The notes beneath the pieces were generated by a model that saw only the letters and a program-made list of their open reading frames with translations, was not told where the DNA came from and did not search any database. The position numbers and the translations under genes were made by a program. Source: Eledone cirrhosa (Eukaryota). Taken from it: a stretch of DNA of 64,000 bases. The stretch covers positions 31,186,001 to 31,250,000 of the forward strand of contig OZ024753.1 in the NCBI GenBank assembly GCA_964016885.1, read 5' to 3'. Below, piece after piece: positions 878 through 5,950 of the stretch (position 1 is its first letter; each line of letters starts with the position of its first letter).

Positions 878-1282
878 AGCTTGTTAGCTATCGTCAGCAA
901 CGTATACCTTCCTGTCAGATTGTTGAACGTATATACTTACCTTATGCATATTAACGGCTGAGTAGCCCAATATGCATATCGAGTGGGTTAATCGGCCGGG
1001 TGCACCGAAAACGATAAACGGAAAAAATGAAACGATATTTCATTTCCCACTCTTAGTACGGCTGTTACTTAAATATAAGTATGTACACGTACATACATAT
1101 ATGTATACCGACGTACAGTAGTATGTATATATATATATACATACATGCACACATATATATATGCACGTATGGATTCACCGAACATTTATTATAATGCTCG
1201 GTGTGTTTGTAAACAAACATCCCGTATTAAGCCGTAGTGTCTAGCAACCACCGTTGCTCATTTGTTCAACACTGACAAAGGA

Positions 1283-1325
1283 ACGCTGTACTAGTTTCAA
1301 GCTTGTTAGCTATCGTCAGCAACGT
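1283..1325 (-). ncRNA. Minimal type I hammerhead ribozyme (F1); identical copy at 1705-1747 (-)
   Basis: Reverse complement reads ACGUUG-CUGACGA-U-AGC-UAACAA-GCU-U-GAAA-CUAG-UA^CAGCGU: 6-bp stem I, intact core, palindromic stem III, GUA cleavage triplet. Confidence 0.85.
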
Positions 1326-2305
1326 ATACCTTCCTGCCAGATTGTTGAACGTATATACTTACCTTATGCATATTAACGGCTGAGTAGCCCAATATGCATA
1401 TCGAGTGGGTTAATCGGCCGGGTGCACCGAAAACGATAAACGGAAAAAATGAAACGATATTTCATTTCCCACTCTTAGTACGGCTGTTACTTAAATATAA
1501 GTATGTACACGTACATACATATATGTATACCGACGTACAGTAGTATGTATATATATATATACATACATGCACACATATATATATGCACGTATGGATTCAC
1601 CGAACATTTATTATAATGCTCGGTGTGTTTGTAAACAAACATCCCGTATTAAGCCGTAGTGTCTAGCAACCACCGTTGCTCATTTGTTCAACACTGACAA
1701 AGGAACGCTGTACTAGTTTCAAGCTTGTTAGCTATCGTCAGCAACGTATACCTTCCTGCCAGATTGTTGAACGTATATACTTACCTTATGCATATTAACG
1801 GCTGAGTAGCCCAATATGCATATCGAGTGGGTTAATCGGCCGGGTGCACCGAAAACGATAAACGGAAAAAATGAAACGATATTTCATTTCCCACGATAGC
1901 TAACAAGCTTGAAACTAGTACAGCGTTCCTTTGTCAGTGTTGAACAAATGAGCAACGGTGGTTGCTAGACACTACGGCTTAATACGGGATGTTTGTTTAC
2001 AAACACACCGAGCATTATAATAAATGTTCGGTGAATCCATACGTGCATATATATATGTGTGCATGTATGTATATATATATATACATACTACTGTACGTCG
2101 GTATACATATATGTATGTACGTGTACATACTTATATTTAAGTAACAGCCGTACTAAGAGTGGGAAATGAAATATCGTTTCATTTTTTCCGTTTATCGTTT
2201 TCGGTGCACCCGGCCGATTAACCCACTCGATATGCATATTGGGCTACTCAGCCGTTAATATGCATAAGGTAAGTATATACGTTCAACAATCTGGCAGGAA
2301 GGTAT

Positions 2306-2348
2306 ACGTTGCTGACGATAGCTAACAAGCTTGAAACTAGTACAGCGT
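2306..2348 (+). ncRNA. Minimal type I hammerhead ribozyme (F1); identical copy at 2728-2770 (+), 5'-truncated copy at 1893-1926
   Basis: acgttg ctgacga tagctaacaagctt gaaa ctag ta cagcgt; predicted cleavage after 2342. Confidence 0.85.
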
Positions 2349-2976
2349 TCCTTTGTCAGTGTTGAACAAATGAGCAACGGTGGTTGCTAGACACTACGGC
2401 TTAATACGGGATGTTTGTTTACAAACACACCGAGCATTATAATAAATGTTCGGTGAATCCATACGTGCATATATATATGTGTGCATGTATGTATATATAT
2501 ATATACATACTACTGTACGTCGGTATACATATATGTATGTACGTGTACATACTTATATTTAAGTAACAGCCGTACTAAGAGTGGGAAATGAAATATCGTT
2601 TCATTTTTTCCGTTTATCGTTTTCGGTGCACCCGGCCGATTAACCCACTCGATATGCATATTGGGCTACTCAGCCGTTAATATGCATAAGGTAAGTATAT
2701 ACGTTCAACAATCTGGCAGGAAGGTATACGTTGCTGACGATAGCTAACAAGCTTGAAACTAGTACAGCGTTCCTTTGTCAGTGTTGAACAAATGAGCAAC
2801 GGTGGTTGCTAGACACTACGGCTTAATACGGGATGTTTGTTTACAAACACACCGAGCATTATAATAAATGTTCGGTGAATCCATACGTGCATATATATAT
2901 GTGTGCATGTATGTATATATATATATACATACTACTGTACGTCGGTATACATATATGTATGTACGTGTACATACTT

Positions 2977-4695
2977 ATATATATATATATAAATATATAT
3001 ATATATATATATATATATAAATATATATATATATAAATATATATATATATAAATATATATATATATATAAATATATATATATATATATAAATATATATAT
3101 ATATATATATATAAATATATATATAAATATATATATATATATATATAAATATATATATAAATATATATATATATATATATAAATATATATATAAATATAT
3201 ATATATATATATATATAAATATAAATATATATATATATATAAATATATATATATATATAAATATATATATATATATAAATATATATATATATATATATAT
3301 AAATATATATATATATAAATATATATATATATATAAATATATATATATATATATATATAAATATATATAAATATATATATATATATAAATATATATATAT
3401 ATATAAATATATATATATATAAATATATATAAATATATATATATATATAAATATATATATATATATAAATATATATATATATAAATATATATATATATAT
3501 ATGAATATATATATATATATATAAATATATATATATATATAAATATATATATAAATATATATATATAAATATATATATAAATATATATATATAAATATAT
3601 ATATATAAATATATATATATAAATATATATATAAATATATAAATATATATATATAAATATATATATATATATATAAATATATATATATAAATATATATAT
3701 ATAAATATATATATAAATATATATATATATATATATATAAATATATATATAAATATATATAAATATATATATATATATATATAAATATATATATATAAAT
3801 ATAAATATATATATATATATATATAAATATAAATATATATATATATATATATATAAATATATATATAAATATATATATATATAAATATAAATATAAATAT
3901 ATATATATATATAAATATATATATATATATATATATAAATATATATATATATAAATATATATATATATATATAAATATAAATATAAATATATATATATAA
4001 ATATATATATATATATATATATATAAATATATATATATATATAAATATATATATATAAATATATATATATATAAATATATATATATATATAAATATATAT
4101 ATATATATAAATATATATATATATATAAATATATATATATATATAAATATATATATATATATAAATATATATATATATAAATATATATATATATAAATAT
4201 ATATATATATATAAATATATATATATATAAATATATATATATATATATATATATATATATATATAAATATATATATATATATATAAATATATATATATAT
4301 ATATAAATATATATATATATATATAAATATATATATATAAATATATATATAAATATATATATAAATATATATATATAAATATATATATATAAATATATAA
4401 ATATATATATAAATATATATATATAAATATATATATATAAATATATATATATATATATAAATATATATATATAAATATATATATATAAATATAAATATAT
4501 AAATATATATATATATATATAAATATATATATATAAATATATATATATAAATATAAATATATAAATATATATATATAAATATAAATATATAAATATATAT
4601 ATATAAATATAAATATATATATATAAATATATATATAAATATATATATATATAAATATATATATAAATATATATATAAATATATATATAAATATA
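2977..4695. repeat. (TA)n microsatellite with TAAA interruptions
   Basis: Direct reading; source of the spurious I/Y ORFs. Confidence 0.98.
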
Positions 4696-5950
4696 AATTG
4701 AAACAAAATGAAAACGAAATTTCATTTCTCACTCTTAGTATGGCACTTACTTAAATGTAAGTATGCATGTATACGTACATACATATATGTATACAGACGT
4801 ACAGTAGCATGCACATATATATATATATATATACATATATACATACATATGCATACAGGTACACATACATATATGCACGTATCAGTTTAGCGGCGCTTAT
4901 TATAACGTCGCTTTGTTCGTTTGTAAACAAACTGAACAGCCTGAATTTATGCCATACGGTGTTAAGGCAACCACGTCACCTTTTTGTTCAACACTGACAC
5001 AGGAACGATGTACTAGTTTCAAGCTTGTTAGCTATCATCAGCACCGTTTACCCATCTGCCAGATAGTTGAACGTTCGAAAGTATATACTTTCCTTATGAA
5101 AATTAACGGCTGAGCAGCCTAATTTGCATATTGAGTGAGTTAAATCGGTCAGGCATACCGAAAACGATAAATTGAAACAAAATGAAAACGAAATTTCATT
5201 TCTCACTCTTAGTATGGCACTTACTTAAATGTAAGTATGCATGTATACGTACATACATATATGTATACAGATGTACAGTAGCATGCACATATATATATAT
5301 ATATACATATATATATACATATGCATACAGGTACACATACATATATGCACGTATCAGTTTAGCGGCGCTAACGTCGCTTTGTTCGTTTGTAAACAAACTG
5401 AACAGCCTGAATTTATGCCATACGGTGTTAAGGCAACCACGTCACCTTTTTGTTCAACACTGACACAGGAACGATGTACTAGTTTCAAGCTTGTTAGCTA
5501 TCATCAGCACCGTTTACCCATCTGCCAGATAGTTGAACGTTCGAAAGTATATACTTTCCTTATGAAAATTAACGGCTGAGCAGCCTAATTTGCATATTGA
5601 GTGAGTTAAATCGGTCAGGCATACCGAAAACGATAAATTGAAACAAAATGAAAACGAAATTTCATTTCTCACTCTTAGTATGGCACTTACTTAAATGTAA
5701 GTATGCATGTATACGTACATACATATATGTATACAGACGTACAGTAGCATGCACATATATATATATATATACATATATATATACAAATGCATACAGGTAC
5801 ACATACATATATGCACGTATCAGTTTAGCGGCGCTAACGTCAGTATTGAACAAAAAGGTGACGTGGTTGCCTTAACATCAGTGTTGAACAAAAAGGTGAC
5901 GTGGTTGCCTTAACACCGTATGGCATAAATTCAGGCTGTTCAGTTTGTTT
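4691..5950. mobile_element. Family F2: tandem 474/466-bp hammerhead-bearing monomers plus a short inverted arm
   Basis: atgaaaacgaaatttc at 4708, 5182 and 5648; homologous to F1. Inversion at ~5838 with a ~39-nt duplication; joins a family B PLE end at ~5950. Confidence 0.88.
5004..5048 (-). ncRNA. Minimal type I hammerhead ribozyme (F2); second copy at 5470-5514 (-)
   Basis: Reverse complement reads AACGGUG-CUGAUGA-U-AGC-UAACAA-GCU-U-GAAA-CUAG-UA^CAUCGUU. Confidence 0.85.

What the first reader, a model, noticed from the sequence alone, without database searches (positions are those of the whole stretch)
878..5950. Retrozyme-like family: tandem 422-474 bp non-coding monomers, one minimal hammerhead each
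Seen: what looks like a satellite has exactly one intact type I HHR per unit (CUGAYGA...GAAA-CUAG-UA). It occurs as two subfamilies (422 bp; 466/474 bp) and at a dispersed site (57882-58452). The HHR is nearly invariant while the flanks diverge. Stem I changes on both strands yet stays paired (acgTtg/caGcgt vs acgGtg/caTcgt). Known: metazoan non-LTR retrozymes are tandem HHR monomers processed to linear and circular RNAs, and palindromic stem III HHRs act as dimers. Inference: neighbouring HHRs pair through CUAG and excise unit-length RNA, and near-identical arrays come from reverse transcription around a circle. I do not know of this family being described in cephalopods.
Basis: partly seen in the sequence, partly recalled or inferred. 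Interest (0 to 1): 0.9.

Follow-up and report, generated by a model that had tools for sequence, protein, structure and literature searches.

The report
Twin-armed hammerhead retrozyme, Penelope-mobilised
This is a very abundant non-coding repeat with a predicted self-cutting hammerhead RNA in every unit that sits in TA microsatellites as two back-to-back arms ending at two different fixed points, exactly as a young Penelope-type retrotransposon in the same genome does, which likely records copying of one (probably circular) RNA from both ends of a DNA break.

Summary
In detail: seven intact type I hammerhead cores in 422-474 bp non-coding units, and 24,507 exact cores genome-wide. It fits the known animal non-LTR retrozymes; cleavage and circles are untested (no RNA run listed). 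Arm 3' ends fall at two fixed sites about 59 nt apart, and 42 of 42 classifiable two-armed insertions use one site at each end (one exception found later by a directed look). A young Neptune-type Penelope-like element with a 1217-aa ORF obeys the same rule (23 of 23). The two arms share rare variants far above chance, junctions are new at each locus, and in about a quarter neither arm can be a copy of the other. Best model: a Penelope enzyme dimer primes both ends of a break on one RNA, likely a circle, and the two cDNAs anneal. No parent element with matching terminal sequence was found. The scan reported the same twin-priming reading earlier on other DNA; I reached it before looking.

The parts
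878..1894 (-). Insertion 1, left arm: 2.4 units of subfamily A (422 bp), read leftwards; its outer end is hidden by the N gap 678-877
1893..2980 (+). Insertion 1, right arm: 2.6 units of subfamily A; 2-nt overlap with the left arm at the junction; ends at the short (S) site, unit position about 216, joined to (TA)n
2306..2348 (+). Type I hammerhead (6-bp stem I, 4-bp stem II on a U-U pair, one-pair stem III capped by palindromic CUAG); predicted cut after 2342
2728..2770 (+). Second plus-strand hammerhead; predicted cut after 2764
1283..1325 (-). Hammerhead in left arm; predicted cut at 1289
1705..1747 (-). Hammerhead in left arm; predicted cut at 1711
2981..4692 (.). (TA)n microsatellite, the target of insertions 1 and 2
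4693..5841 (-). Insertion 2, left arm: 2.4 units of subfamily B (466/474 bp), hammerheads with predicted cuts at 5011 and 5477; outer end at the long (L) site, unit position 275 in A numbering
5839..5952 (+). Insertion 2, short inverted pieces of B (unit positions 13-51, then 14 to about 83)
5953..6270 (+). 3' end (pseudo-LTR with its own hammerhead-like motif at 6074) of a second Neptune-type Penelope-like family, fused to the B pieces and ending at that family's short site in (TA)n
57880..58072 (-). Insertion 3, left arm (subfamily B), outer end at the L site in (TA)n
58071..58454 (+). Insertion 3, right arm with one hammerhead (predicted cut after 58176), outer end at the S site in (TA)n
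1..677 (-). 5'-truncated copy of the young Neptune-type Penelope-like element (GIY-YIG end of the ORF); candidate mobiliser family, not part of the repeat

Best explanation
This is a high-copy, non-coding retrozyme family whose units carry a hammerhead predicted to cut only as a dimer, and whose insertions sit in (TA)n as two divergent arms with one arm ending at each of two fixed sites; it is likely spread by a Penelope-like enzyme that would prime both ends of a cut target on one RNA, probably a circle. Steps. (1) Read-through transcripts of tandem units would be cut at GUA when two cores pair their CUAG stems, and the monomer, whose ends are held together by a long extension of stem I, would be ligated to a 422-540 nt circle (inferred from published retrozymes). 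(2) A Penelope-like RT-endonuclease dimer, most likely of the Neptune type, would cut both strands in (TA)n and hand each 3' end to one of two start sites 59-62 nt apart on the same RNA (the one-each rule and the shared variants are shown; the enzyme is inferred). (3) Both polymerases run the same way round the template for a variable length, through the cleavage site, giving arms of 0.1 to 10 units (arm lengths shown; circle inferred). (4) The two cDNA 3' ends anneal by a few bases, often at an RNA palindrome, and each serves as template for the other, which yields the head-to-head inversion and needs no separate second-strand primer (junction overlaps shown; the order of events inferred).
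For: 24,507 exact cores, reversed-pattern control 0. 65 divergent two-armed insertions against 2 convergent neighbours in 98 regions; 42 of 42 with both ends classifiable have one S and one L end. Independent list test: 11 S/L pairs, 0 L/L, 0 S/S among 145 junction matches, 14.7 same-type pairs expected if ends were independent. The Neptune-type element (4129-bp unit, 1217-aa open ORF, 150 of 150 scored copies identical over 198 aa) has the same layout, target and rule, 23 of 23 readable. Arms of one insertion differ by a median 1.5% against 13% for permuted partners; rare variants in both arms 48 against 3.9 (max 17 in 500 permutations); in the Neptune element 19 against 1.6. Neither arm is a sub-path of the other in 11 of 42 retrozyme and 8 of 22 Neptune insertions. 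Junction positions differ at every locus except one local duplicate; median overlap 2 nt in 49 junctions. 53 of 53 copies picked by the sequence after the cut continue upstream through the core. Young arrays are almost invariant across both arms and carry locus-private variants in all units. Unit RNA folds at -150.4 kcal/mol, z -7.9, with its ends paired. In vitro a Poseidon element cuts and extends both strands, starts at two sites and is predicted to be a dimer (PMC11167929, parts 1-2 read). Tail length 59-62 nt is close to the two Neptune families (43-58, 56-58 nt) and unlike the Hydra-like family (88 nt).
Against: No cleavage, RNA or circle was observed. No sequence likeness between the unit and the terminal repeats of the three Penelope-like families checked, beyond AT repeats, so the mobiliser is not identified. 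One S+S insertion exists (L274), and 23 of the 65 two-armed insertions have an end in the internal microsatellite, in a gap or elsewhere. 87 private and 58 rare variants occur in one arm only, and a few loci have arms 6-16% apart (L152, L183, L031, L027), which later mutation explains only in part. Array L256 alternates two unit types in a way best explained by a later 842-bp DNA duplication, so arrays can also grow without RNA. The U-U pair at the base of stem II and the one-pair stem III predict weak activity; 8 of 9 Xenopus dimers did not cleave in vitro (bioRxiv 10.64898/2026.07.22.740005), and hammerhead mutants did not impair Poseidon insertion in vitro (PMC11167929).
Confidence: 0.68

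Rival explanations
1. Same twin priming by a Penelope-like enzyme, but the template is an uncleaved linear multimer transcribed from a homogeneous source array; arrays are lengthened in DNA by unequal exchange, and the hammerhead matters only occasionally.
For: All insertion features except array regeneration fit equally. L256 shows DNA-level duplication. Weak core; hammerhead-independent insertion and no reads ending at the cut for the Poseidon element (PMC11167929).
Against: The core and stem I are conserved with compensation while flanks vary. Several separate loci have private variants in every unit of both arms (7+1 copies in L037, 4+5 in L097), which needs repeated passage through a single unit followed by fast multimerisation. 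Arrays of 9-10 cores on other contigs differ internally by 1-3 changes.
Confidence: 0.17
2. One target-primed cDNA only; the inverted arm arises by fold-back self-priming or a jump to an antisense RNA, and the short end is made when the endonuclease resolves the intermediate (the published readings of the inversion and the tail).
For: Would also give one tail per insertion and arms with shared variants. Some junctions are palindromic with 9-29 nt overlaps. Proposed in PMC3846280 (passages) and PMC8557442 (passages).
Against: Fold-back requires one arm to be a sub-path of the other; this fails in 11 of 42 retrozyme and 8 of 22 Neptune insertions, and either arm can be the longer. Copying a transcript that already holds an inversion would repeat junctions between loci; none recur. 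A jump to a separate antisense RNA is not excluded but does not readily explain the shared rare variants.
Confidence: 0.12
3. An ordinary satellite or an assembly duplication; the hammerhead match is incidental.
For: Short tandem arrays next to an N gap in a microsatellite-rich region; no Rfam hammerhead match.
Against: Thousands of dispersed loci with fixed ends (1553 and 3308 exact junction matches). Contigs of public runs hold the unit, opposite-strand joints and the L-site/(TA)n junction (one holder may be the assembled sample itself). Core conservation and stem I compensation.
Confidence: 0.02

Closest known systems
Animal non-LTR retrozymes (Cervera and de la Pena 2020, PMC7229834; parts 3-4 and passages read)
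   Same: Short low-GC non-coding tandem units, one type I hammerhead each, strongly self-paired unit RNA, co-existence with Penelope-like elements. The core combines the one-pair stem III with palindromic tetraloop of axolotl HHR_Amex1 and the U-U base of stem II of HHR_Amex2, both shown there to cleave better as dimers.
   Different: Units (420-540 bp) are a little longer than the 170-400 nt given there. The words 'inverted', 'orientation', 'target site', 'octopus' and 'cephalopod' do not occur in its main text; the two-armed layout, fixed end sites and (TA)n target are not described in the parts read. Cleavage and circles were shown there, not here.
Retrozymes as non-autonomous Penelope-like sequences (Li, Clavereau and Pollet 2026, bioRxiv 10.64898/2026.07.22.740005; parts 1-3 of 5 read: abstract to discussion)
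   Same: Proposes mobilisation by Penelope-like elements; size range 51-972 bp covers this family.
   Different: Its evidence is co-occurrence and pseudo-LTR homology, mostly in vertebrates; here homology to a pseudo-LTR was not found, but the insertion scars themselves match. It favours local tandem growth after insertion; here multi-unit arms appear dispersed and young.
EN+ Penelope-like elements of the Neptune/Nematis type (Craig et al. 2021, PMC8557442; Arkhipova et al. 2013, PMC3846280; passages read)
   Same: 5' truncation, partial tandems, an inverted 5'-truncated copy, a tail often at one end only, microsatellite targets.
   Different: No ORF. The tail is 59-62 nt rather than 30-40. 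The papers call the tail optional and explain it by endonuclease resolution or self-priming; here it is at exactly one end in nearly all readable cases.
Poseidon element of Anolis in vitro (Frangieh et al. 2024, PMC11167929; parts 1-2 of 4 read)
   Same: Internal initiation at two sites that bound the tail; AT-rich target; both strands cut and extended; predicted dimer.
   Different: No coupling between the two strands' start sites, no inverted product and no circular template were reported in the parts read.

Membership tests
Animal non-LTR retrozyme | One type I hammerhead per tandem unit, at least two consecutive units | tested here: met
Animal non-LTR retrozyme | Short, low-GC (<45%), non-coding unit | tested here: met
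   38% GC; longest sense-strand ATG frame 51 aa (A), 48 aa (B); a 112-aa antisense frame in B runs through the microsatellite
Animal non-LTR retrozyme | Hammerhead conserved with compensatory changes | tested here: met
   one clearly covarying pair in stem I (99% of cells paired), one weaker in the extension; related sequences inflate such counts
Animal non-LTR retrozyme | Highly self-paired unit RNA | tested here: met
   -150.4 kcal/mol, z -7.9; part of it comes from the TA-rich hairpin
Animal non-LTR retrozyme | Self-cleavage, better as dimer | not testable with these tools
   Only a predicted 6-bp intermolecular stem III, -6.8 kcal/mol
Animal non-LTR retrozyme | Expressed as linear and circular monomers | not testable with these tools
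   No RNA holder listed
Animal non-LTR retrozyme | Co-exists with autonomous Penelope-like elements | tested here: met
   Two Neptune-type and one Hydra-like family with open ORFs
Derivative of a Penelope pseudo-LTR (Li et al. 2026) | Sequence homology to the pseudo-LTR of an autonomous element | tested here: not met
   None beyond AT repeats for the three families checked; other families in the genome were not examined
Penelope-type insertion | Fixed 3' ends, scattered 5' truncation, inverted 5' copy | tested here: met
Penelope-type insertion | Tail at one end only | tested here: met
   42 of 42, 11 of 11, one S+S exception
Penelope-type insertion | Microsatellite / AT-rich target | tested here: met
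Penelope-type insertion | Target-site duplication | tested here: inconclusive
   Cannot be read inside (TA)n flanks
Rfam hammerhead families | Match to a covariance model | tested here: not met
Neptune/Nematis-type element (candidate mobiliser) | RT, CX2-5CxxC linker and C-terminal GIY-YIG in one ORF, hammerhead-like motif in the pseudo-LTR | tested here: inconclusive
   Motifs read by eye in the 1217-aa ORF against PMC8557442 passages; no Pfam hit; no tree was built, so the clade name is provisional

The most novel reading that the evidence does not exclude
Penelope-like enzymes integrate by obligate twin priming: a dimer holds one ribozyme-made RNA circle, hands the two ends of a (TA)n break to two fixed start sites about 60 nt apart, rolls both polymerases round the circle and joins the two cDNAs. 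This single mechanism would explain tandem copies, head-to-head inversion, the one-sided tail and second-strand synthesis, and this 422-nt parasite, unrelated in sequence to its helper, would be the minimal substrate, recognised by shape.
Probability: 0.45. Interest if true: 0.82.

Novelty: new member of a known kind. Interest (0 to 1): 0.6.

Why it matters
How Penelope-like elements, the closest relatives of telomerase RT, make their tandem and inverted insertions is named as an open question in PMC8557442, and mobilisation of animal retrozymes by them has been proposed without insertion-level evidence. Here a non-coding repeat with tens of thousands of copies and a young element with an open ORF leave the same quantitative scar. 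That gives a small RNA, a candidate enzyme, a target and sharp predictions for a test-tube assay. The repeat family itself is an ordinary new retrozyme; the value lies in the rule its insertions reveal.

Tried and rejected
Rfam: no hammerhead match (only microRNA-like hits to the TA hairpin, below gathering score). Expression: no RNA holder listed; the runs laid are contigs of unknown kind and say nothing on cuts or circles; no contig bridged the fusion at 5953, which proves nothing. Parent element: no likeness to Neptune-1, Neptune-2 or the Hydra-like family. Linear cleaved monomer as template: rejected, since no 5' end falls at the cut (0 of 53; histogram). Circular heterodimer as template of L256: considered and rejected in favour of a later DNA duplication, because the 5'-most unit lacks three changes shared by the other two units of its type. 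Retrozyme/other-element chimeras (window 5953; L095) both join an L end to an S end, but two cases cannot be told from later deletions. One search gave misaligned arm comparisons and was replaced. Pfam and PDB gave no useful hit for the ORF. Literature searches found no retrozyme or hammerhead report for cephalopods and no twin-priming model for Penelope-like elements; two octopus repeat papers lack the words hammerhead and ribozyme (term search only). Dfam and Repbase could not be searched, supplements were not read, and subscription papers are not in the library, so a prior description is not excluded.
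Full report
Observation. The window holds three insertions of one repeat. Tandem Repeats Finder gives period 422 at 878-1894 and 1893-2980 and period 466 at 4693-5841. Seven copies of one hammerhead core are present, against 0.25 chance hits expected for the loose pattern. 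The core has a 6-bp stem I, a 4-bp stem II on a U-U pair and a one-pair stem III capped by the palindrome CUAG, with predicted cuts after 2342 and 2764. Rfam does not detect it. In the own genome (3.0 Gb) the core occurs 13,428 times exactly, 24,507 times with a free loop II base and free cut base, and the 28 bases after the cut 26,047 times; the reversed controls give 0. Unit lengths in fetched loci run from 420 to 538 bp, with at least three groups. Across the loci carrying two-armed insertions only 2 of 31 core columns are polymorphic, both at free positions, against 61 of 221 flank columns. In 50 sequences stem I is paired in 99% of cells and one pair switches between U-G, G-U and A-U; an 18-pair extension is 92% paired. 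The unit RNA folds far better than shuffles (z -7.9) and brings its two ends together. Contigs of public runs hold the unit, opposite-strand joints and a junction to (TA)n, so this is no assembly artefact, although one holder may be the assembled sample.

What the finding did not state. Each insertion is two arms pointing away from each other: a minus arm, a junction, a plus arm, with (TA)n outside. In 98 regions I found 65 such divergent pairs and 2 convergent neighbours. Numbering the unit from the cut, outer ends cluster at about 216 (S) and 275 (L). Of the 65, 42 have both ends at S or L, and all 42 have one of each (26 S-left, 16 L-left; one is a local duplicate). The other 23 have an end in the internal microsatellite (11) or in a gap or other sequence (12). 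As a check free of my classifier, I searched the genome for one S junction and one L junction of the A type (1553 and 3308 exact matches). Among the 45 S and 100 L matches listed for the first 97 Mb of C1 there are 11 divergent S/L pairs and no L/L or S/S pair, where 14.7 same-type pairs are expected if ends were independent. A directed look further along the S list found one S+S insertion (L274), so the rule is strong, not absolute. In 15 further regions there were 8 two-armed insertions: 2 S/L, 6 with one unclassified end, none of the same type. Inner (5') ends are scattered round the unit, junction positions do not recur, overlaps have a median of 2 nt in 49 junctions, and none of 53 copies picked by the sequence after the cut begins at the cut.

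The helper. The ORF fragment at window 80-677 belongs to a young Penelope-like family: all 150 scored matches are identical over 198 aa, and full copies have a 1217-aa open frame in a 4129-bp tandem unit. [quoted passage not shown] Its insertions show the same layout in (TA)n with ends at 249 or 292-307, one of each in 23 of 23 readable cases. A second Neptune-type family has sites 56-58 nt apart, and its 3' end is fused to insertion 2 at about 5953. A Hydra-like family has sites 88 nt apart. The retrozyme's spacing (59 nt in A, 62 in B by my count from the printed units) is nearest to the Neptune families, but the unit shares no sequence with any of the three beyond AT repeats. The mobiliser class is therefore well supported, the family is not.

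One template for both arms. In 40 insertions with overlapping arms the median difference is 1.5%, against 13% for permuted partners; 1 of 40 exceeds 10% on ungapped columns against 55% in permutations; rare variants are in both arms 48 times against 3.9 expected. Thirteen locus-private columns in 8 loci are in both arms and in all their units, while 87 are in one arm only; 58 rare variants are also one-armed, and four loci have arms 6-16% apart. In the Neptune element 19 non-majority variants are shared and 8 differ, against 1.6 and 33.8. Shared variants alone would also follow from fold-back copying, but that needs one arm to be a sub-path of the other. This fails in 11 of 42 retrozyme and 8 of 22 Neptune insertions (two of the 8 are marginal), and in the rest either arm may be the longer. 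Two separate cDNAs from the same RNA, or at least from the same source locus, fit best.

Circle or multimer. Young arrays of 9-10 cores on other contigs differ internally by 1-3 changes across both arms, and insertion 1 by one. Arms cross the cut site freely and reach ten units. Private variants fixed in all units of several loci need repeated passage through one unit. A ligated monomer explains this most simply, as proposed for retrozymes and Penelope elements (PMC7229834; PMC4209133, passages). Against it, L256 shows that arrays also grow by DNA duplication, the core is of a weak type, and there are no RNA data.

Mechanism and standing. Shown: copy number, core conservation, layout, the one-each rule, shared variants, non-containment, junction overlaps, the same rule in an element with an open ORF. 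Inferred: cleavage as dimer, ligation to a circle, the enzyme, twin priming, annealing of the cDNAs. The in vitro work on a Poseidon element (both strands cut and extended, two internal start sites, predicted dimer; PMC11167929) supplies the parts; the coupling between them is what these insertions add. Earlier papers treat the tail as optional and explain the inversion by self-priming or endonuclease resolution (PMC3846280, PMC8557442). The element is a new member of the animal non-LTR retrozymes, whose link to Penelope-like elements has been proposed (bioRxiv 10.64898/2026.07.22.740005). My searches found no cephalopod report and no twin-priming model in print, with the limits given under Tried and rejected. 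Earlier notes of this scan report the same reading on other DNA of this and other genomes; I had stated it before that look-up, and they are not independent support. Interest 0.6: the family is ordinary, the insertion rule makes an open question directly testable.

Noticed in passing
window 1-677 (minus); full copy L132:2582-6235: Very young Neptune-type Penelope-like family: 1217-aa open ORF with an asparagine-rich stretch, 4129-bp tandem unit, own hammerhead-like motif, arms up to 2.7 units; best named relative an Octopus vulgaris RT-domain protein at 69%, which fits an octopod host.
   Followed up: yes
window 5953-6270; also 44133-44414, 29926-30223, 16854-17220, 29682-29838, 44979-45088: 3' ends of a second Neptune-type family with its own short and long end sites 56-58 nt apart.
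   Followed up: partly
window 6801-9008 (minus); L237, L247: Third, Hydra-like Penelope family (clade name recalled, not tested), many copies at 96-98% amino-acid identity, two end sites 88 nt apart; no canonical hammerhead pattern found in its 3258-bp unit.
   Followed up: partly
L095:2543, L203:1291, L210:667 and many other loci: A further abundant short repeat with the same two-arm, two-site layout in (TA)n (tail about 80 nt); possibly the scrambled-hammerhead family of earlier scan notes, not checked. In L095 its short end is joined to a retrozyme long-end arm.
   Followed up: partly
window 28968-29008; L110, L237:2379: Another repeated hammerhead-like core of a different family.
   Followed up: no
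L256:6367-8273: Array with two alternating unit types, best read as a later 842-bp DNA duplication.
   Followed up: yes
L274:961-1186: Two-armed insertion with the short site at both ends, the one exception to the rule; its left arm has an internal jump.
   Followed up: yes
window 46936-47691 (plus): Exon encoding an ANF-receptor ligand-binding region (PF01094, E 8e-25), a host gene among the repeats.
   Followed up: no
window 12125-13025: 45-bp minisatellite, 20 copies, with long open frames on the minus strand.
   Followed up: no
L069: A whole two-armed insertion with its flank is tandemly duplicated in DNA at a period of about 2.6 kb.
   Followed up: partly
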